From positions 1-64,000 of IMG/VR virus record IMGVR_UViG_3300042894_004766: 64,000 bases of DNA. One strand, written 5' to 3'. The notes below the pieces were generated by a model, which was not told where the DNA came from, made no database searches, and worked only from the letters and a program-made list of their open reading frames with translations. The DNA comes from a virus. Made by a program: the position numbers and the translations under genes. Below, piece after piece: positions 1-16,301 of this stretch (within the stretch, counting starts at the first letter, position 1; each line of letters begins with the position of its first letter).

Positions 1-4
1 TTTG

Positions 5-93
5 TAGTCTGTACGGGATTCGAACCCGCGTTACCTCCTTCGAAGGGAGACGTCCTGACCCACCGAGGTGAGTATCCACTAGACGAACAGACC
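5..93 (-). tRNA. tRNA-Glu-scaffold tRNA-like RNA; 7-nt loop CUUCGAA (UCG in the anticodon position); hairpin inserted in D-loop
   Basis: Reverse complement GGTCTGT TC GTCT AGTGG ATACTCACCTCGGTGGGTC AGGAC G TCTCC CTTCGAA GGAGG TAAC GCGGG TTCGAAT CCCGT ACAGACT A; no encoded CCA. Confidence 0.8.
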
Positions 94-182
94 GAAGTGT
101 CGTGTTTTGATTACACTAAAGATGAATTCTTGTATAAGAAGTACCAACTTGTCAACATTACAGAAATGACATTTACACTTAG

Positions 183-255
183 TAGCGGGAGAAGGACTCG
201 AACCTCCGACCTTATGGTTATGAGCCACACGAGCTACCTACTGCTCTATCCCGCG
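183..255 (-). tRNA. Initiator-type tRNA-Met (CAT)
   Basis: CGCGGGA...TGTGG CTCATAA CCATA...TCCCGCT A; 1-72 mismatch and A11-U24 typical of tRNA-fMet. Confidence 0.9.
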
Positions 256-260
256 ATATG

Positions 261-376
261 TAGTCTGTACGGGATTCGAACCCGCGTTCCTCTCTCGTGA
301 CTAAGAGAATGTCCTGTTTACCTTACTTTAATGCCGAAGCTTTTTGTTCAGTAAACATCCACTAGACGAACAGACC
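261..376 (-). tRNA. tRNA-Glu-scaffold tRNA-like RNA; long D-loop hairpin; 8-nt anticodon-position loop
   Basis: Same acceptor, T arm and D-stem as 5-93; D-loop insert TGTTTAC...GC TTCG GC...GTAAACA; arm TTCTCT TAGTCACG AGAGAG. Confidence 0.75.
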
Positions 377-411
377 GAAGAGTGTCGGAATTAAAACGCG
401 CAGCACTCTTA

Positions 412-455
412 TTTTGTTTGACAAAGATACGGTGACTTTTTTAATCTACCAAATC
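412..455 (-). promoter_or_regulatory. Bacteroidota primary-sigma promoter, 44-bp repeat copy 1
   Basis: GATTTGGTAGATTAAAAAAGTCACCGTATCTTTGTCAAACAAAA: TTTG (-33) and TATCTTTG (-7 TAnnTTTG). Confidence 0.85.
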
Positions 456-475
456 TTTTTTCATTTATTTTTTTG

Positions 476-573
476 TAGTCTGTACGGGATTCGAACCCGC
501 GTGTTCTCCTTAATTGCCGAACCGGCGAGAAGACATCCTATCTACCGAGGTAGCTCCACTAGATGAACAGACC
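476..573 (-). tRNA. tRNA-Glu-scaffold tRNA-like RNA; extra hairpin in anticodon arm; no canonical anticodon loop
   Basis: Same acceptor and T arm; D-loop insert CTACC TC GGTAG; arm TCTTCT C GCCG GTT CGGC AATTA AGGAGA. Confidence 0.75.
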
Positions 574-633
574 GAAGAGTTGTGCTTTCTTACACCACGA
601 AGCCGAGTATTTCACACGACGCCTACTCTTATT

Positions 634-677
634 TTTTGTTTGACAAAGATACGGTGACTTTTTTAATCTACCAAATC
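634..677 (-). promoter_or_regulatory. Bacteroidota sigma promoter, repeat copy 2
   Basis: Identical to 412-455. Confidence 0.85.
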
Positions 678-697
678 TTTTTTCAATTTTTTTTTTG

Positions 698-775
698 TGA
701 CCGAAGTTGGGTTCGAGCCAACAACTAGCGTTACTTCTATTTCAAGAATACTACTTTACATTAAGTTACCCGGCC
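698..775 (-). tRNA. Degenerate tRNA-like element, isotype unclear
   Basis: Acceptor GGCCGGG/TTCGGTC (three G-U pairs), D arm ACTT/AAGT, T arm GTTGG CTCGAAC CCAAC, irregular anticodon arm TTCT TGAAAT AGAA. Confidence 0.55.
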
Positions 776-779
776 TTAG

Positions 780-890
780 TAGTCTGTAAGGGATTCGAAC
801 CCATGTTTACAATCTCTCCATATACCAGGGCATAAAAGCGTGAGATTGTCGTCCTATTACCGAAGTAATATACCGCTAGACGAACAGACC
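780..890 (-). tRNA. tRNA-Glu-scaffold tRNA-like RNA; UUCG hairpin in D-loop; 8-bp arm closing a 25-nt loop
   Basis: GGTCTGT...TATTAC TTCG GTAATA GGAC G ACAATCTC[25 nt]GAGATTGT AAAC ATGGG TTCGAAT CCCTT ACAGACT A. Confidence 0.75.
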
Positions 891-897
891 ATTTTAT

Positions 898-941
898 TTT
901 TGTTTGACAAAGATACGGTGACTTTTTTAATCTACCAAATC
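898..941 (-). promoter_or_regulatory. Bacteroidota sigma promoter, repeat copy 3 (related copy at ~1106-1138)
   Basis: Identical to 412-455. Confidence 0.85.
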
Positions 942-3981: not shown

Positions 3982-4821
3982 CTATCTTTTAAATTCATCA
4001 AATTTTAAAAGTTTTGACTCAACTACTACTTCTTTCGCAGTTGTACCACCTCTTCTTTCCATTGCTTTCCATTTCTTATCTAAGAAAGCTAACTTAGCTT
4101 TATCGATTTTGCAGTTTCTATCTGAAATGTTTCCTTCGTTGAAAAGTGCAATCATTTCATCAATACTTAATGTAGGGTGTTTTTTATCAAACAATGGATC
4201 TGGATGTGACCAACCAAATTTAAGTAACCAGTTTAACATAGCAGCCTTACTGAAGTCTTTGTAGTCTTCTGTTGTACCGTTACCTTTTCTCTTAGATAAT
4301 TTAGCATTACCTTCAAAAAGTAAACCAGCATGTGTAATAACTGGAAATGGTTTGTCTCCTTCAACTTCACAAATCTTATCCCAGATTAAGTGTTGTTTTA
4401 CCTCATTTGCAATGTGGTCAACACCTCTGATGATGTTAGTTACATCATAATCATAATCATCTAAGATTGAACAAAAGTTATAAGTAGGAAATCCGTTATT
4501 TCTAAGGATAACCATTGAGTACTCTCCCATATCTAACTCGTAACCATTCTCAGTTTTAGTACCGATTTTTTCAGCTACTTCTTTATAACGGTCTAATCTT
4601 TCGGACTGTCTGAATGTGATGTCATGATCTAATCCAAACTCTGCCATTTGATCATAGATATAGTCAATCCATTCTGGTTTATTTCTTTCTTGATCGGTAT
4701 CATCAATTCTTAAAATGAATGTACCGTTATTAGCTCTTGCTTGAAGCCAAGCAAGTAATGCTGTACGTAAGGTTCCTAAATGAAAGAATCCAGTTGGAGA
4801 GGGTGCTACTCTTGTTACCAT
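3982..4821 (-). CDS. Truncated glutamyl-tRNA synthetase-like protein (catalytic and SC-fold domains only)
   Basis: RVAPSPTG-HLGT, RIDDTD, RQSER, IIRGVDH, KLSKR, FGWS; 279 aa, no anticodon-binding domains. Confidence 0.9.
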   Translation of the reverse strand: MVTRVAPSPTGFFHLGTLRTALLAWLQARANNGTFILRIDDTDQERNKPEWIDYIYDQMAEFGLDHDITFRQSERLDRYKEVAEKIGTKTENGYELDMGEYSMVILRNNGFPTYNFCSILDDYDYDVTNIIRGVDHIANEVKQHLIWDKICEVEGDKPFPVITHAGLLFEGNAKLSKRKGNGTTEDYKDFSKAAMLNWLLKFGWSHPDPLFDKKHPTLSIDEMIALFNEGNISDRNCKIDKAKLAFLDKKWKAMERRGGTTAKEVVVESKLLKFDEFKR

Positions 4822-7077: not shown

Positions 7078-7494
7078 TTATGATTTGTAGAAATCTCCTT
7101 TTTCTTCTACGTATTTCAATCTTGCTTCTTCAGCTTGAGATCTTAGTTTAACATATTCTTTTCTAAGTAATTGAATTTGTTTTTCTTTTTGACTTGTTTC
7201 TAATACAACTTTGAAATCGATAACATTTTTAAGTTTTAAGTACCAGAAGAAGTTATTGATTGACTTTTGTCCGGTTTTTTTACCAACAAGAAATAATCGT
7301 CTTGCTAACTTTTTCTTTCCAGTTTGTGTTAAGTGATCAATCTTAAAGTTTATCCACTCTAAGTGTTCGTTTACTTCACCGTCAACTTTTATTACATATT
7401 TTTTATCAATTGCAACTTGTGTTGCTTTTACCATTAGATTTTTCAAGTTTACATCTAATTCATTTACTCCTGTGTTTGTTTGTTTTGTGTCCAT
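7078..7494 (-). CDS. Hypothetical protein with basic C-terminal coiled coil
   Basis: 138-aa ORF followed by a terminator. Confidence 0.7.
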   Translation of the reverse strand: MDTKQTNTGVNELDVNLKNLMVKATQVAIDKKYVIKVDGEVNEHLEWINFKIDHLTQTGKKKLARRLFLVGKKTGQKSINNFFWYLKLKNVIDFKVVLETSQKEKQIQLLRKEYVKLRSQAEEARLKYVEEKGDFYKS

Positions 7495-7551
7495 TTTTTT
7501 AATATTTTTTTTAGTTATTTTTTAATAATTTTAATCTTCTAAGTTAAAATA

Positions 7552-7584
7552 TTAAGTTGGACCTCTGATTACAATCTATCTCAT
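7552..7584 (-). CDS. Putative amber-containing leader peptide M-R-(TAG)-I-V-I-R-G-P-T
   Basis: AAATAAATAAACAAC ATG AGA TAG ATT GTA ATC AGA GGT CCA ACT TAA; same ATG-NNN-TAG-ATT context as 9508-9519. Confidence 0.55.
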
Positions 7585-7604
7585 GTTGTTTATTTATTTT
7601 TTGT

Positions 7605-8195
7605 TTATATTTCGTTTAATTTTTTCACTTTAAATATTTTTTTGATGTTATCAAGTTTTGCTTTAATATCATCAAGTAATTGTCTTTGAACTCTAGTAAA
7701 AGTTCTACCTTCTTCCATTGCGTCAACTATTGCACAAGTTTCTCTGTAATAGTTTGTTCTGAATCTTTCAGAAGCAGTAAATGCGTCTGCAATGTTATTA
7801 AATCTATCTGATAGTTTAATAGTAAACGCTTTGTCAGACATTTTCAACATTTTATTGATTAGGTAGTTTGTTTTACTACCTCCCCATTTATGTTTAATTT
7901 CATCTGTGTTAGATGTTAACTCTAACATAATATCTGCAACCTCTTTACCAAAAAGTTCTTTCACATCAGCATAAGCATCCCAGATGTTATCATAACAATC
8001 TTCTGCAACATCGTGTACTAAAGCAGCGATTAAGGTTGCTTCATCAGTAGTGTACAATTTTAATGTACCATTTACTTTTTGTACGTGTGCGTCAAAGTAA
8101 GGTTGTCCAGTAAACTTTCTTACTTGATCTTTATGAGCTCTTTGGGCAAATTCCCAAGCTAATTTTTCTTTCGGTGTAATCGGTGCGTTCGCCAT
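7605..8195 (-). CDS. RelA/SpoT-type HD hydrolase (small alarmone hydrolase/Mesh1-like)
   Basis: AHKDQVRK...PY..H, AALVHDVAED, IKLSDRFNN. Confidence 0.85.
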   Translation of the reverse strand: MANAPITPKEKLAWEFAQRAHKDQVRKFTGQPYFDAHVQKVNGTLKLYTTDEATLIAALVHDVAEDCYDNIWDAYADVKELFGKEVADIMLELTSNTDEIKHKWGGSKTNYLINKMLKMSDKAFTIKLSDRFNNIADAFTASERFRTNYYRETCAIVDAMEEGRTFTRVQRQLLDDIKAKLDNIKKIFKVKKLNEI

Positions 8196-8236
8196 AAATC
8201 TTTTCTTTTTATATATTATATTGCAAATATACGATT

Positions 8237-8599
8237 TTATTTTATATATTCCTCAAATTCTTTATAGACTCTTTCCATAAATCTTTTTTCTCTATCAGTT
8301 ATATCTGGTCCTAAATCAAATATAAATTTACTTTTTATGATTTCCCAGTTTTCTTCTTTTGTTTTATCATCATCATAATTATCATAGATAATATCAAATG
8401 AATCTGTACAATAAATATCTACTTTATCTCCTTTTATAGTAGATACATAGTTGTCATTTTCATCAATATATGAGTAGTGACCATCGTAATATCCAGGTAT
8501 TCTTGCGGCACCTATTGGTACACCACCATACATTCTTACATGTGATTCTCCTGTTGGGTCCGCATCTTGCAATATTTTTATAAATTCTTTTGTTGTCAT
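8237..8599 (-). CDS. Hypothetical protein
   Basis: 120-aa ORF in the operon. Confidence 0.7.
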   Translation of the reverse strand: MTTKEFIKILQDADPTGESHVRMYGGVPIGAARIPGYYDGHYSYIDENDNYVSTIKGDKVDIYCTDSFDIIYDNYDDDKTKEENWEIIKSKFIFDLGPDITDREKRFMERVYKEFEEYIK

Positions 8600-8601
8600 A
8601 A

Positions 8602-9525
8602 TTATTGTTTATTTTTTAATAAGTTTAAAACTTGTTTACCTCTTTTATCTAATTGTTTGTATTTTATTTTAAATGAAGTACTTTCAATACCACCAAATAT
8701 CGCTGCATTAGAATGTAATTCACAAAGTGATGTTACTAATAGTGTAAAAACGGTTTCGATTGAGTTTTTTGTAACAAAGTCTTCTACTTCATCTGATTTA
8801 ATAGTATGAAATACCATATCTTTTAAGATTAAATCTGCAACTACTTTGTTATCAGAAATCTTAGAGAATGTATCAAATGATACTTGTGCGTGGTTTGGAA
8901 AGTGTCTTTTACCTTCTTCATCAATTATCATACAATATGCCTTCCCACAATCGTGCATTACTTGATATTCCTTAATATCTTCTAATGAATGTAAGTTGTT
9001 AAGTATAAACTCTTTATTATCTGTAAACCAAGTAGGTAACTTCCATTCAAATACTGGATTACTACTAGTTAAATCGTTAAAATACTTATTGACAGATATG
9101 CCGTGATCTAGTACACTTTGTGTATCAGTTTGAGGTGTATCAATCATATCAGAGATAACTTTCTCGTATGTTAGTTTTGATTTTTTACCTAAAAGTGGAA
9201 GATATGAAACTTTCTTTCTGACATCTTTATCTGCGTATAAACAAATAGATGTAAGTTCATCGTTTAAATCTGGTTCGTAAAATTTTGTGACTGAGGTAAG
9301 TTTGGATAACTTTAAGTATAAGTCATTTAATTCTTTTTCATTGTTTACTTGTAAACAGATGATAGAATTAGATGTAGTTTTCCATTCTTTAAATTGTTGT
9401 GGAAACTCGTATGCGAAGTCTGCAATTGAGTGTGTTGATTGTTGGCTCTGATAGCCTGGAGTTAAATCACTTCTAGTGATAACTACTAATTTTGCTTGGT
9501 CTTTGTTAATCTAAGTCATTGTCAT
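8602..9525 (-). CDS. Pth2-like peptidyl-tRNA hydrolase fused to an HD domain, with an in-frame TAG at 9511-9513
   Basis: Frame is open from 9510 to 8602: KLVVITRSDLTPGYQSQQSTHS...FYEPDL...LPLLG (Pth2-like), then HDCGK...HFPNHA (HD). The upstream ATGs (9525, 9519) are separated from it only by TAG. Confidence 0.8.
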
Positions 9526-9527
9526 AA

Positions 9528-9713
9528 TTATTTATTATTTTTTAAAAATTGTTGTTCTTTTTTAGTTAGACTCTTCATACCTTTTTCTGAAATTTTATCC
9601 AGTATTCGATTTAATTCGTCTTCTTTTTCTTTTCTTATTGAGTTAAATTCATAATCATCAATAAGTCGTTTTTCAACGTTTGTTTTAAATAGTTTTTTAA
9701 ACCAACTTAACAT
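9528..9713 (-). CDS. Small protein with DUF6576-like C-terminus
   Basis: LNRILDKISEKGMKSLTKKEQQFL. Confidence 0.65.
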   Translation of the reverse strand: MLSWFKKLFKTNVEKRLIDDYEFNSIRKEKEDELNRILDKISEKGMKSLTKKEQQFLKNNK

Positions 9714-9736
9714 TGTTTATATATTAAATTTTTTTG

Positions 9737-9802
9737 TGGCTCTGGAGGGGAATGATCCCTCGTCTTCTGGTTTTAGAGGCCTTAGACTAACCATACAAAG
9801 CC
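9737..9802 (-). ncRNA. D-arm-defective tRNA-like RNA with CUA (amber) loop remnant and 11-nt segment complementary to the Pth2 amber site
   Basis: GGCTTTG TA TGGTTAGTCTAAGGC CTCTAAA ACCAG AAGAC GAGGG ATCATTC CCCTC CAGAGCC A; own TATCTTTG promoter (9814-9821) and TTTG (9841-9844). Confidence 0.75.
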
Positions 9803-9845
9803 GTTTTGTTTTACAAAGATACAACTAATTTTTAATACACCAAAT

Positions 9846-10394: not shown

Positions 10395-11648
10395 TTAGTT
10401 TAATTTAGCTCTGATTCCGGGCATATAAATCTCAATCAATTGTATCAATTCTTCTTTACACTCTGGAGTCAATGATTTATTTTTATTTTGATTCAACAAA
10501 ATCATAAATGAACTTACAACTTTATTAAATTTAAAGGCATCTGTAAAGTCAAATATAGTTTTCTTAAATGATTCTATATCAATAGTTTCTTCACCTGTTT
10601 TATCCAACCAAGTTTTCATTCTATTTATAAATCTTCTAATTCCAATTATATTTTCATCAGACCAAGAACCACCATCAAAGTAGTGACCAATAAACATCAA
10701 GTAAAATCTGATTTCATCTGGATCATATCCATCCAAACTAACTACATTTCCCTTTGATTTAGACATCTTTTCACCACCATTCAATATCATTCCTTGGTGT
10801 ACCAACTTATTAATTGGTTCTTCAAAGTCAATAAATCCAATATCATACAAAAACATTGTGATAAATCTAATATAAATCAAGTGCATACAAGCATGTTCTG
10901 AACCACCAACATACAAATCAACTGGTTTTGGTTTAATACCTTTCATCAAACAATAGATAATAGTATAAATAGAACTATCTACGAATGTGTCCATTGTATC
11001 TGTCTCACCTTCAATAGGAATAGGGCAACCCCAACTTCTTTGTCTTGATACACACCAGTCGTGTTGATTTTCCAACCAATTTCTTTGTGACTTTATTGTA
11101 GATTCTGGAAAGTCAATCTTATCCAAACCTGCAATCAATCTATCTTTATAATCTGTGATTTTGAAATACCATTGATTCAATGTTTTCTTTTCTACTTCTG
11201 TAGAACATCTTTCACATTTACCATCTTTTACTTGTTCTCTTGCCAATACAGTTTCACAACTGTTACAGAAGTCAACTTCACCATCTTTCTTATAAGCCAA
11301 ACCTTTATCATACAATTGTTTAAACAACCATTGTGTGTACTCAATATAGTTAGGATCCGAGGTAATCAACATTTCCTCGTATTGAGTATTCATGTTATCC
11401 ATCTGTATTCTAAAATTTTCTATATTTTCGTAGGTAACTTCTCTTGGATCTCTACCTACTTTTTTTGCATAGTTTTCTGCTGGCAAACCATGACTATCAT
11501 ATCCAAAGGGTTGAAAAACTTGTTCACCTTTATATCTCAAGTATCTACAGTAACTATCCATAATCGCATAGTTATACCAGTGTCCACAGTGCAAACCACT
11601 CCCAGAAGGATATGGGAAAAATGTTGCAATATATTTATAATCTTTCAT
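10395..11648 (-). CDS. Minimal leucyl-tRNA synthetase-like protein (no CP1 editing or C-terminal domain)
   Basis: FPYPSGSGLHCGH, GYDSHGLPAEN, QWYFKIT, DWCVSRQRSWGCPIP, TMDTFVDSS, KMSKSKGN. Confidence 0.9.
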   Translation of the reverse strand: MKDYKYIATFFPYPSGSGLHCGHWYNYAIMDSYCRYLRYKGEQVFQPFGYDSHGLPAENYAKKVGRDPREVTYENIENFRIQMDNMNTQYEEMLITSDPNYIEYTQWLFKQLYDKGLAYKKDGEVDFCNSCETVLAREQVKDGKCERCSTEVEKKTLNQWYFKITDYKDRLIAGLDKIDFPESTIKSQRNWLENQHDWCVSRQRSWGCPIPIEGETDTMDTFVDSSIYTIIYCLMKGIKPKPVDLYVGGSEHACMHLIYIRFITMFLYDIGFIDFEEPINKLVHQGMILNGGEKMSKSKGNVVSLDGYDPDEIRFYLMFIGHYFDGGSWSDENIIGIRRFINRMKTWLDKTGEETIDIESFKKTIFDFTDAFKFNKVVSSFMILLNQNKNKSLTPECKEELIQLIEIYMPGIRAKLN

Positions 11649-11845
11649 TTCTTTGTTTTTTTCTTGTAAAGTGACTTGTGTCAATTTTTAATTTTTTAAT
11701 TATTCTATAAATTTTACTTTCAATTAGTTTTGTGTGTTCTTGTTGTATATTTGTACAAATATCTTTACTATCCACTATGTTCCCTACTTATATTTTTAAT
11801 TTAAGCTTAGTTGCAAATATAATAATTAAATTTAATATATAAACT

Positions 11846-15458: not shown

Positions 15459-16301
15459 TTAGTCTTGTAATTCAAGTTGTTCTTGATTTTGTTTTTGAAG
15501 TAACTCCATAGCTCTTGCTAATCTTGTTAAACCAATTCCTGCACCAAATCTTGGAAAGAAATCAAATTTTAGGAAATCTTCCAATTCTTTTTCTACTCTT
15601 TCTTTTCCGAATAATTCAAATAATTTTTCAGAATATCCACCATTTTCTATTGTATAAAACATTTTTCTCATAGAGTCAATATCGCAACTTCTTTCTGCAG
15701 CACCTATTGTTTCTTGTCCATATAATATTATATCAACTTTATTAAATAGATCATCTTTTTGATTTTGCATGTTCCAAAATGGATTAGTTCTTAGTGGAAA
15801 GTTTTGAAGAGAAACACAATGACTTACTTCATTCCACATTTTAGTTTCATGTTCATTTTCTAAAATTGATACGTCTCCATATTCTTTACAAGTTTTATTA
15901 TAGTCCATTTCAACAGGTGATCCAAATCCTAAATACTCAAGAAGTTCTTTTTCTAATAGAATTAAATCTTTATATTTACCTTTTGATTCAAACTCAAACA
16001 TTGGAAAGATTAGTTCATGTCTTCCAGGAATTGGATTTTTTTCTGCTCTGTAACTTGTAGATACACAGAAAACTCCATCCCAAGTAGGATTTTTTAATAA
16101 TTCATACTCAAGCCACATTTGTCCAGTTTGTGGTAGTGGCCATATCTCACCATTGTATTCAAAGGTTGATACGGAGTGTGGGTTTTCACACGCTGCTAAG
16201 ATTGATAATCTTGATTGTGTTGGTACTTCTACGAAGTTTTTTTCCAAAAAAAATTCTCTTAGTTTTTGAACTAGAGAATTGTACATTAAAGTGTTTGTCA
16301 T
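15459..16301 (-). CDS. Class IIb aaRS catalytic-domain-only protein (AsnRS/AspRS-like; possibly asparagine synthetase-type paralog)
   Basis: Motif 1 FFLEKNFVEVPT, motif 2 YRAE...RH..FPMFEFE, motif 3 GAGIGLTRL; no OB-fold domain. Confidence 0.85.
   Translation of the reverse strand: MTNTLMYNSLVQKLREFFLEKNFVEVPTQSRLSILAACENPHSVSTFEYNGEIWPLPQTGQMWLEYELLKNPTWDGVFCVSTSYRAEKNPIPGRHELIFPMFEFESKGKYKDLILLEKELLEYLGFGSPVEMDYNKTCKEYGDVSILENEHETKMWNEVSHCVSLQNFPLRTNPFWNMQNQKDDLFNKVDIILYGQETIGAAERSCDIDSMRKMFYTIENGGYSEKLFELFGKERVEKELEDFLKFDFFPRFGAGIGLTRLARAMELLQKQNQEQLELQD

What the first reader, a model, noticed from the sequence alone, without database searches (positions are those of the whole stretch)
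7552..9844. Candidate new system: guide-bearing amber tRNA-like RNA and two ATG-NNN-TAG-ATT gated ORFs in one cluster
Seen in sequence, all on the minus strand: (a) a promoter-driven 66-nt tRNA-like RNA with a CUCUAAA (CUA) loop remnant; (b) a Pth2-HD gene beginning ATG ACT TAG ATT; (c) a leader beginning ATG AGA TAG ATT. Both ambers are codon 3 after an ATG and are followed by ATT. The RNA segment GUUAGUCUAAG (9781-9791), which replaces the D-arm, pairs with the mRNA CUUAGAUUAAC (9505-9515) over 11 nt (10 Watson-Crick, one G-U), spanning the TAG. It pairs over 7 nt with the leader site (UAGAUUG). TAG is a genuine stop elsewhere (41383, 57476, 17198, 52544), and none of those four is followed by ATT. 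Inference: context-specific, RNA-guided amber readthrough or recoding that gates tRNA-recycling functions (Pth2, HD; an alarmone-hydrolase-like gene lies between the two sites), rather than genome-wide recoding.
Basis: partly seen in the sequence, partly recalled or inferred. Interest (0 to 1): 0.95.

Follow-up and report, generated by a model that had tools for sequence, protein, structure and literature searches.

The report
Amber-stop-gated phage tRNA-repair gene cluster
A fragment of a giant lake-water phage that otherwise uses the normal genetic code keeps a UAG stop a few codons into a tRNA-end enzyme gene and into a tiny leader peptide, next to an odd-shaped RNA that looks built to read UAG; the same layout recurs in dozens of distant large phages, so it may identify what their so far unexplained suppressor tRNAs read.

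Summary
The idea that stands is a gate limited to certain genes, not genome-wide recoding. The guide-RNA idea does not stand.

- **The gated gene.** It is a fusion of a Pth2-fold domain and an HD-fold domain. It can only be made if the TAG at codon 5 is read through. The same gate (ATG, then one to five codons, then TAG) opens the homologous gene in nearly every related locus I fetched, including six cultured jumbo phages.
- **The leader.** It is also real. After its TAG it encodes a peptide conserved with synonymous changes (IVIRGPT), so UAG is evidently translated there.
A CUA-anticodon tRNA lies beside the module in most loci. In this clade it is a non-canonical RNA with a 9-nt loop centred on CUA, driven by the same promoter as the phage's other tRNA genes.
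- **The 11-nt "guide" pairing.** It exists only in this window's RNA variant. Close relatives with the identical mRNA site carry other RNA variants. These share only the anticodon-loop match UCUAA/UUAGA.

Best reading: translation of these genes depends on a suppressor tRNA. Nothing is experimental. I found no published description. This scan has noted the same module on other DNA before.

The parts
9813..9844 (-). Promoter of the tRNA-like RNA: TTTG at 9844-9841 and TAnnTTTG at 9821-9814
   Evidence: The same extended motif precedes the odd tRNA genes at 916, 652 and 430 and one protein gene at 1115. It is conserved upstream of the RNA in all clade relatives.
9737..9802 (-). Non-canonical tRNA-like RNA ('family A'). 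It has a 7-bp acceptor stem, a T arm with an A54/U58 swap, discriminator A, no encoded CCA, and a 9-nt loop centred on CUA and closed by two G-C pairs.
   Evidence: A DNA contig from a lake sample skips exactly 9735-9805, so the RNA behaves as a swappable cassette.
9528..9713 (-). 61-aa ORF (Pfam DUF6576) between the RNA and the gated gene
   Evidence: syntenic in relatives.
9511..9525 (-). Gate of the Pth2-HD gene: ATG ACA ATG ACT TAG, with TAG at 9513-9511
   Evidence: The gate is conserved in the homologs.
8602..9510 (-). Body of the Pth2-HD fusion (302 codons plus stop). Pth2-fold domain at about 9498-9181; HD-fold domain at about 9177-8605.
   Evidence: PDB profile hit to Pth2 2zv3, E 5e-9. 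Pfam PTH2 in 10 of 10 family members and HD in 4 of 10. AlphaFold model pLDDT 91.8. Structural match Z 15 to Pth2 and Z 13-14 to the C-terminal domain of an A-adding tRNA nucleotidyltransferase.
8237..8599 (-). 120-aa ORF of unknown function, translationally coupled to the Pth2-HD gene
7605..8195 (-). SpoT/RelA-type HD hydrolase domain protein, resembling a small alarmone hydrolase
   Evidence: Pfam HD_4 E 1e-14; NCBIfam spoT_relA E 4e-17.
7552..7584 (-). Amber-gated leader: ATG AGA TAG, then codons for IVIRGPT, then TAA
   Evidence: The peptide after the TAG is conserved with synonymous changes in relatives. The motif also occurs in distant phages L006, L005 and L046.
7078..7494 (-). 138-aa conserved protein downstream of the leader; function unknown
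   Evidence: Its homologs follow the Pth2-like gene in huge phages L003, L005 and L006. There are 92 homologs, some on contigs of 624-656 kb. No fold match, Z 6 or less.

Best explanation
The cluster is a translation gate that depends on an amber-suppressor tRNA. A phage promoter drives a tRNA-like RNA whose loop presents U33-CUA-A37. Once processed, given a CCA end and charged, this RNA decodes UAG at two places: codon 5 of the Pth2-HD mRNA and codon 3 of a short leader.

Without it, ribosomes end after 4 or 2 residues and make nothing of consequence. With it, they make the Pth2-HD enzyme (an acyl- or peptidyl-tRNA hydrolase fold fused to an HD phosphohydrolase of the tRNA-nucleotidyltransferase type). 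They also translate the leader peptide IVIRGPT, whose R-G-P core resembles ribosome-arrest motifs and probably controls the 138-aa gene behind it.

Shown here:
- Both ambers are conserved.
- The codon is always TAG.
- The leader peptide downstream of its TAG is under coding selection.
- CUA tRNAs are linked to the module.
- The domains have the stated folds.

Inferred:
- This particular RNA is the decoder.
- Which amino acid it inserts.
- What the gate is for: a timer, a check that phage tRNAs work in this host, or a feedback loop in which the enzyme acts on the suppressor tRNA's own 3' end.
For: 1. The gate is conserved. In 12 of 16 clusters (70% identity) of the Pth2-like domain, the first in-frame stop upstream of the homology is TAG, preceded by ATG and 1-5 codons. 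Eleven clusters of stand-alone HD-like genes show the same. Two of the four exceptions have the gate on the neighbouring HD gene. By direct reading it is also in GAP32, ME3, Arash, RsoM2USA (both genes), XacN1 and pT24.
2. TAG is specific. The gate is never TAA or TGA, although 87% of long ORFs on this contig end in TAA.
3. The next codon is not always start-like (GTA, GTT, ACT, ACC, ACG, CTA also occur), so reinitiation cannot be general. The base after TAG is A in 28, G in 5, C in 1 and T in 0 of 34 distinct gates. From general knowledge, a purine there favours amber suppression.
4. The leader peptide after its TAG is kept through synonymous changes (ATC/ATT, GGT/GGA, CCA/CCT/CCC). R-G-P-[PT] or RPP follows 20 of 641 TAG mini-ORFs, against 0 of 960 TAA and 0 of 462 TGA mini-ORFs.
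5. A CUA tRNA lies on the same strand in 22 loci by standard ARAGORN, and it is often the only tRNA there. All clade relatives carry the non-canonical one.
6. The non-canonical RNAs are real structured genes. Family B, together with L129 and L142 from 635-642 kb phages, keeps one architecture through compensatory changes in the acceptor stem, the side hairpin and the anticodon stem, always with a 9-nt loop centred on CUA. The window's T loop carries a paired 54/58 swap.
7. The RNA has the same promoter as the phage's other tRNA genes.
Against: - Nothing is experimental. Expression, processing, charging and decoding are all untested.
- The window's family-A RNA has only two or three good pairs in its anticodon stem, no proper D arm and a 9-nt loop. 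It falls below the Rfam threshold.
- Three family-A variants have two mismatches in the acceptor stem. In these, the 5' strand pairs better with an internal segment.
- The contig is about a sixth of a genome that is probably over 600 kb, so another suppressor tRNA could lie elsewhere.
- TAG ends 8 ordinary long ORFs, about half of them followed by A. A strong suppressor would therefore carry a cost.
Confidence: 0.65

Rival explanations
1. The gate is real, but the window's family-A RNA is not the decoder. It would be a decaying relic or have another role. UAG would be read by a different suppressor tRNA in the unsequenced part of the genome, or by a co-infecting or host factor.
For: - Weak anticodon stem, and a score below the Rfam threshold.
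- The acceptor pairing of three family-A variants is ambiguous.
- One variant partly matches the tRNA-like domain of the tmRNA model: 27 bits against a gathering score of 47.
- The contig is a fragment.
- In LR745206 and LR756502 the CUA RNA lies far from the gated gene.
Against: - The RNA is kept behind an intact tRNA-type promoter in every clade relative.
- It occupies the same slot as the well-folded family-B RNA in near-identical phages.
- No canonical CUA tRNA was found in relatives' contigs of 73-180 kb, nor among the 36-57 tRNAs that ARAGORN called in the tRNA-rich stretches I fetched from three complete huge phages. A few of their Rfam tRNA matches were not fetched.
Confidence: 0.2
2. 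TAG is a true stop. The ATG-to-TAG minigene only loads ribosomes, which then reinitiate at the adjacent ATT or ATA. This would be a start-stop or bar-minigene-like coupling to a peptidyl-tRNA hydrolase gene, with no suppressor needed.
For: - ATT follows the TAG in 22 of 34 distinct gates, ATA in 1 and ATC in 1.
- From general knowledge, very short minigenes produce peptidyl-tRNA drop-off, which is the substrate of Pth (lambda bar minigenes).
Against: - Other lineages have GTA, GTT, ACT, ACC, ACG or CTA after the TAG, with no start codon before the conserved first strand.
- Reinitiation would not require TAG in place of the far commoner TAA.
- It does not explain the linked CUA tRNAs.
- It does not explain the mid-gene TAGs in L005 and in the GAP32 HD gene.
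Confidence: 0.07
3. One reading: the segment that replaces the D arm acts as a guide. It base-pairs with the mRNA around the TAG (11 nt) and targets recoding to these sites.
For: The 11-nt duplex spanning the TAG is present and uncommon by chance: 46 of 20000 shuffles. A 9-nt version is present in the L013-type variant.
Against: - L034 has the identical mRNA site but a D-region without the segment. L031 has the identical site and a family-B RNA. All other variants share only the 5-nt UCUAA/UUAGA match.
- Distant phages use ordinary cloverleaf CUA tRNAs for the same gate.
- The segment looks like a second copy of the anticodon-loop sequence.
Confidence: 0.04
4. The gate senses release factor 1. 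Low RF1 activity lets near-cognate host tRNAs read UAG, in a prfB-like logic, and the CUA tRNA is incidental.
For: An early, conserved in-frame stop of a single type is the hallmark of prfB autoregulation (general knowledge). TAG is read only by RF1.
Against: The tight, repeated genomic linkage with CUA tRNAs, which are often the only tRNA in the locus, is unexplained. No release-factor gene or RF1 inhibitor was identified here.
Confidence: 0.04

Closest known systems
Stop-codon-recoded phages with their own suppressor tRNAs and 'code change modules' (TAG read as Gln, code 15; Lak, crAss-like and others; bioRxiv 10.1101/2021.08.26.457843, PMC7886860, PMC9523058)
   Same: A phage-encoded CUA tRNA lets ribosomes read in-frame TAG in phage genes. 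Expression of those genes depends on the tRNA. Those authors expected phage suppressor tRNAs with non-canonical shapes.
   Different: Here the genome uses the standard code. TAG ends 8 long ORFs, and only one gene and one leader on about 100 kb carry an in-frame TAG. The TAG sits at codons 3-6, not scattered through late genes. The clients are tRNA-end enzymes, not structural or lysis genes.
prfB (release factor 2) autoregulation through an early in-frame UGA (general knowledge)
   Same: A conserved early in-frame stop of one specific type makes synthesis depend on how that stop is handled by the translation machinery. The product itself belongs to that machinery.
   Different: No frameshift is needed here, because the ORF continues in frame. 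The escape route is a dedicated tRNA, not a shift. Whether the product feeds back on the event is unknown.
Engineered amber-suppressor gates in synthetic biology (for example the suppressor-tRNA feed-forward 'leak dampener', PMC7969014)
   Same: An amber codon placed right after the start codon, plus a separately expressed suppressor tRNA, gives tight conditional translation.
   Different: This would be a natural counterpart, in which the tRNA and its client lie in one co-oriented cluster.
RAPP/RGPP-type ribosome arrest peptides and SecM (PMC12992588, PMC10951233, PMC7897499)
   Same: A short upstream ORF ends in an Arg-Gly-Pro core just before a regulated downstream gene. RGPP is reported as the strongest arrest motif of this class.
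   Different: The window's motif is RGPT, not RGPP. RGPP itself occurs in L046 and RPP in L005. The nascent chain would be only about 9 residues long. The peptide can be made only after UAG readthrough. Stalling is untested.
Armless or otherwise non-canonical tRNAs (metazoan mitochondrial D-armless tRNAs; tRNAs with expanded anticodon loops; general knowledge)
   Same: The acceptor stem and T arm are kept, the D arm is reduced or rebuilt, and the anticodon is still presented in a loop with U33 and a purine at 37.
   Different: These RNAs are in a bacteriophage and have a 9-nt loop closed by a C-A, C-C or A-C mismatch. In family B, a helix forms between the 5' connector and the variable region, with a side hairpin.

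Membership tests
Canonical tRNA (Rfam RF00005) | Score at or above the gathering threshold (29 bits) | tested here: not met
   22.9 bits, E 0.15. Relatives' variants score 28.5, 23.5 and 15.1 bits. Standard ARAGORN finds nothing.
Canonical tRNA (Rfam RF00005) | 7-bp acceptor stem, 5-bp T stem with a 7-nt T loop, discriminator base | tested here: met
   Seven pairs including one G-U. The T stem is 5 bp. The T loop has a 54/58 swap. The discriminator is A.
Canonical tRNA (Rfam RF00005) | D arm, and a 5-bp anticodon stem with a 7-nt loop | tested here: not met
   Either a 4-bp D-like hairpin forms and destroys the anticodon arm, or a connector replaces the D arm and the anticodon stem has 2 G-C pairs around a 9-nt loop.
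Functional amber suppressor tRNA | CUA in a loop flanked by U33 and A37 | tested here: met
   CUA is the central triplet of the 9-nt loop in all family-A and family-B variants and in L129 and L142.
Functional amber suppressor tRNA | In-frame TAG clients under selection | tested here: met
   Gate conserved in 12 of 16 Pth2 clusters and 11 HD clusters. The leader peptide after its TAG is kept through synonymous changes.
Functional amber suppressor tRNA | Aminoacylation and decoding of UAG on the ribosome | not testable with these tools
   Contigs from RNA libraries cover both TAG sites, but they cannot show transcription, charging or decoding.
Genome-wide TAG recoding (code 15) | Many genes with in-frame TAG, and TAG not used as a stop | tested here: not met
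   No TAG bridges two long frames, and 8 of 93 long ORFs end in TAG. The only other ATG-to-TAG site followed by a long open frame with a late first start codon (contig 64530) lies before a normal start.
Pth2 peptidyl-tRNA hydrolase (PF01981) | Profile match and fold | tested here: met
   The window protein alone scores 21.3 bits, against a cut-off of 23. A family profile against PDB gives E 5e-9 to 2zv3. PTH2 is found in 10 of 10 members, best E 4.5e-10. Fold match Z 14-15, rmsd about 2 A over about 103 residues.
Pth2 peptidyl-tRNA hydrolase (PF01981) | Catalytic residues and activity on peptidyl-tRNA | not tested
   Invariant columns are listed but were not mapped onto the known active site.
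HD-domain phosphohydrolase | H...HD...D metal-binding motif and fold | tested here: met
   H136, H186-D187, H203, H207, D231 and H235 are invariant. Pfam HD in 4 of 10 members, best E 7e-5. Fold match Z 13-14 to the C-terminal domain of an A-adding enzyme and Z 9-10 to PhnZ, PgpH and PPX.
RAPP/RGPP arrest peptide | R-[AG]-P-P at the arrest site | tested here: not met
   The window has RGPT. RGPP occurs only in L046 and RPP in L005.
RAPP/RGPP arrest peptide | Small ORF directly upstream of a co-oriented regulated gene | tested here: met
   The leader ends 57 nt before the 138-aa gene. The arrangement is kept in relatives and in L005 and L006.
   Identical mRNA sites are paired with different RNAs (L034, L031). 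Only the 5-nt loop match is shared.

The most novel reading that the evidence does not exclude
The module is a self-referential homeostat built on a new class of tRNA. Non-canonical CUA tRNAs with expanded 9-nt loops are weak suppressors on purpose. The Pth2-HD enzyme, whose own synthesis needs the charged suppressor, acts on that tRNA's 3' end by deacylating it or trimming and repairing it. Enzyme level and suppressor charging would then hold each other in check. The amber-plus-RGPT leader would report the same signal to a second gene. In this clade, the neighbouring stripped-down LeuRS-like core might be the dedicated charging enzyme.
Probability: 0.15. Interest if true: 0.9.

Novelty: new variant of a known kind. 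Interest (0 to 1): 0.8.

Why it matters
- **Orphan suppressor tRNAs.** Many jumbo phages that use the standard code carry CUA suppressor tRNAs with no known target. The XacN1 paper says so explicitly (PMC5852040). A conserved amber at codons 3-6 of the Pth2-like and HD-like genes names candidate targets.
- **It can be tested now.** The gate is present in cultured phages: GAP32, ME3, Arash, RsoM2USA, XacN1 and pT24.
- **Annotation.** Deposited annotations of some of these genes appear to start too late, split them, or rest on in silico read-through that could not see the site. In pT24 the deposited CDS starts at an internal ATG 27 codons after the homology begins.
- **A natural switch.** It would be a natural version of the amber-gate switches built in synthetic biology.
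- **Unusual tRNAs.** This window adds tRNA-like RNAs that standard tRNA finders miss, but that keep a common architecture through compensatory changes.

Tried and rejected
- **Guide pairing.** Tested across nine RNA variants and rejected.
- **Genome-wide recoding.** Rejected.
- **Other TAG-gated genes on the 99.8-kb contig.** The one candidate with a long unstarted frame (64530) sits before the normal start of a metallophosphatase-like ORF and overlaps the previous gene's end. Two others (79137, 26786) have normal starts 1-3 codons after the TAG.
- **LeuRS-like core (10395-11684) as the tRNA's dedicated synthetase.** It is syntenic in the clade. No homolog lies beside the CUA RNAs of LR745206, LR756502 or LR756504. 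It is kept only as a speculation.
- **The 138-aa protein.** No Pfam, PHROG, NCBIfam, PDB-sequence or Atlas hit. Best structural Z is 6.0, to helical bundles.
- **tmRNA-like reading of one RNA variant.** 27 bits against a gathering score of 47. Not adopted.
- **Public sequencing runs.** Contigs from RNA libraries cover 9381-9600 and 7472-7623, with no difference listed at either TAG. These are assembled contigs and the table was truncated, so they show neither transcription nor decoding.
- **Literature.** Four literature searches for a prior description (suppressor tRNA, Pth, jumbo phage, in-frame amber) found none.
- **Complex prediction.** Not attempted. No protein-protein claim is made.
Full report
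**What the window is.** The window is the first 64 kb of a 99.8-kb phage contig with 28% G+C. It is densely coded under the standard code. It comes from lake water. Its relatives are huge phages: homologs of one of its genes sit on contigs of 624-656 kb, and the nearest records are the 635-642 kb genomes LR745206 and LR756502 and Tenacibaculum jumbo phage pT24. The neighbourhood is rich in translation genes. These include a stripped-down LeuRS-like core, a GluRS/GlnRS-core protein, a class II synthetase-core protein, ClpB and MetK.

**Check of the observation.**
- *The RNA (9802-9737).* It has a 7-bp acceptor stem, a T arm and a discriminator A. It scores only 22.9 bits on the Rfam tRNA model. 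ARAGORN calls it only in relaxed mode, as a D-armless tRNA with anticodon CUA.
- *The gene.* It reads ATG ACA ATG ACT TAG ATT and then stays open for 302 codons. The first ordinary start codon is 121 codons after the TAG, although Pth2 homology begins at codon 7 after it.
- *The leader.* It reads ATG AGA TAG ATT and runs 7 codons past the TAG.
Among ORFs of 120 aa or more, 81 end in TAA, 8 in TAG and 4 in TGA. No TAG bridges two long frames.

**The amber in the gene is a conserved feature.** I fetched 68 loci with homologs from phage records, IMG/VR and metagenomes.
- In 12 of 16 clusters (70% identity) of the Pth2-like domain, the first in-frame stop upstream of the homology is TAG, preceded by an in-frame ATG and one to five codons.
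- Eleven clusters of stand-alone HD-like genes show the same.
- In two of the four exceptions, the Pth2 gene follows a gated HD gene.
- Where the two domains are separate genes, both can be gated (LR745206, RsoM2USA, L044, L049).
- Direct reading shows the gate in cultured phages of unrelated hosts: pT24, GAP32, ME3, Arash, RsoM2USA and XacN1. In pT24 the deposited CDS starts at an internal ATG 27 codons after the homology begins.
- The gate is never TAA or TGA.
- The codon after it is ATT in 22 of 34 distinct gates. It is also GTA, GTT, ACT, ACC, ACG or CTA, so reinitiation at a near-cognate start cannot be the general mechanism.
- The base after TAG is A in 28, G in 5, C in 1 and T in 0. From general knowledge, a following purine favours amber suppression.

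**The leader is also real.** The block from its ATG to the Pro-Thr codons is the best-conserved part of an otherwise drifting intergenic region. It is conserved as a peptide. Relatives read M-[RKT]-stop-I(V)IRGPT with synonymous changes (ATC/ATT, GGT/GGA, CCA/CCT/CCC) and different final stops. Huge phage LR756500 has IRGPT after its TAG, LR756501 has SRPP and L046 has ARGPP. Where I checked the flanks (the clade relatives, LR756500 and LR756501), the leader lies upstream of a module gene. R-G-P-[PT] or RPP follows 20 of 641 TAG mini-ORFs in these loci, against none of 960 TAA and none of 462 TGA mini-ORFs. Coding selection downstream of a TAG, with no start codon after it, is independent evidence that UAG is translated. 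The motif resembles RAPP/RGPP arrest peptides, of which RGPP is reported as the strongest (PMC12992588). The window's RGPT is not that motif, and stalling is untested. The gene behind the leader encodes a conserved 138-aa protein with no recognisable family or fold.

**What reads the TAG.** Standard ARAGORN finds a CUA-anticodon tRNA on the same strand in 22 loci, and it is often the only tRNA there. All relatives in the window's clade instead carry a non-canonical RNA behind the same promoter. These RNAs come in two interchangeable sequence families.
- *Family B.* It folds cleanly. Together with two RNAs I found in LR745206 and LR756502, it keeps one architecture through many compensatory changes: a 7-bp acceptor stem, a side hairpin with a GG loop, a 5-bp anticodon stem, a 9-nt loop centred on CUA, and a canonical T arm.
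- *LR756504.* It has a cloverleaf tRNA with an 8-nt loop that contains the same letters.
- *Family A (the window's RNA).* It is a reduced version. It has the same 9-nt loop closed by two G-C pairs, a GG-containing connector in place of the D arm, and a T loop with a paired 54/58 swap.
- *Promoter.* It is the extended motif that also drives three other odd tRNA genes at the start of the window.
- *No canonical alternative found.* Relatives' contigs of 73-180 kb hold no canonical CUA tRNA. Neither do the 36-57 tRNAs that ARAGORN called in the tRNA-rich stretches I fetched from three complete huge phages, though a few of their Rfam tRNA matches were not fetched.
- *Cassette behaviour.* A lake DNA contig skips exactly the RNA gene, which fits a swappable cassette.

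**The guide idea.** The 11-nt duplex is there and is uncommon by chance, at 46 of 20000 shuffles. It is confined to the window's own RNA variant, with 9 nt in one neighbouring variant. L034 and L031 have the identical mRNA site, but L034 has a D-region without the segment and L031 has a family-B RNA. All nine variants share only the anticodon-loop match UCUAA/UUAGA. The segment looks like a second copy of the loop sequence. A lineage-specific helper role cannot be excluded, but it is not the mechanism.

**What is gated.** A profile of ten family members matches archaeal-type Pth2 in the PDB at E 5e-9. Pfam PTH2 matches all ten members and HD matches four. The AlphaFold model (pLDDT 91.8) gives Z 15 to Pth2 structures for residues 5-110. 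For residues 112-302 it gives Z 13-14 to the C-terminal domain of an A-adding tRNA nucleotidyltransferase, followed by other HD folds. The His and Asp metal ligands are invariant. The next genes are a 120-aa unknown and a SpoT-type HD hydrolase. Taken together, the cluster looks like a set of enzymes that work on tRNA 3' ends.

**Most likely mechanism.** The best reading is translation that depends on a suppressor tRNA, as set out under Best explanation. I put about 0.9 on the ambers being functional and decoded. I put about 0.75 on a phage CUA tRNA doing the decoding. I put about 0.55-0.6 on the window's family-A RNA being that decoder. The purpose of the gate is open.

**Prior knowledge.** I found no paper describing this gate. 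The XacN1 authors state that they could not find targets for its CUA suppressors. Borges and colleagues describe code-change modules in recoded phages and expected suppressor tRNAs of non-canonical shape. This scan's own earlier notes report the same module on other DNA many times, including an odd-shaped CUA tRNA and RGPP-type leaders. I reached the gate reading before opening those notes. The notes prompted the check for an arrest motif.

Noticed in passing
window 1-900, minus strand: An array of five paralogous tRNA-like genes that share one acceptor stem. Each has a UUCG-capped hairpin inserted in the D loop, and some have inserts in the anticodon arm. They are interleaved with a normal tRNA-Met (182-255) and a weak tRNA (698-775, 32 bits). 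At least three have the same promoter as the CUA RNA. ARAGORN reads the inserts as introns in relatives.
   Followed up: partly
window 10395-11684 (-), 3982-4821 (-), 15459-16301 (-): Three stripped-down aminoacyl-tRNA-synthetase cores: LeuRS-like, 429 aa; GluRS/GlnRS catalytic domain only, 279 aa, the size of GluQ-RS; class II Asp/Lys/Asn type, 280 aa, the size of EpmA. The LeuRS-like core lies four genes upstream of the CUA RNA and is syntenic in the clade. It is not next to the CUA RNAs of distant huge phages.
   Followed up: partly
L011, L013, L014, L026, L030 (for example L013:5005-5985): Some close relatives have an extra ORF of 311-322 codons inserted between the CUA RNA and the Pth2-HD gene. 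It also begins with ATG, up to three further codons (the last again ATG), then TAG ATT. It could be a third gated gene or a duplicated gate left by an insertion.
   Followed up: no
L005 (LR756501) about 33 codons into the Pth2-like gene; L021 (GAP32) inside the HD-like gene: Additional in-frame TAG codons in the middle of module genes. In GAP32 the deposited annotation splits the gene there.
   Followed up: partly
L002:2870-2950 and L004:3870-3950: Upstream of the gated Pth2-like gene in LR745206 and LR756502 there is a hairpin of about 60-65 nt. Its base pairs a CCUCCUUAA-like strand with a UUAAGGAGG-like strand, about 40 nt before the ATG. Its inner sequence is not conserved.
   Followed up: no
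L131 (LR756504 281046-281120): An otherwise normal cloverleaf tRNA with an 8-nt anticodon loop containing UCUA. It could read UAG, or the four-base UAGA that the conserved A after the gate would provide. The gated ORFs are in frame, so triplet reading is assumed.
   Followed up: no
window 9735-9805: A DNA contig from one lake-water run joins 9734 to 9806, leaving out or replacing exactly the tRNA-like gene.
   Followed up: no
L008 (LR745208) 4402-4478: A GC-rich huge phage whose Pth2-like gene has a normal GTG start carries a UUA-anticodon (ochre-reading) tRNA directly downstream of that gene. Mycobacteriophage Myrna has GTG TAG GTG at the start of gp84 and a CUA tRNA just downstream.
   Followed up: no
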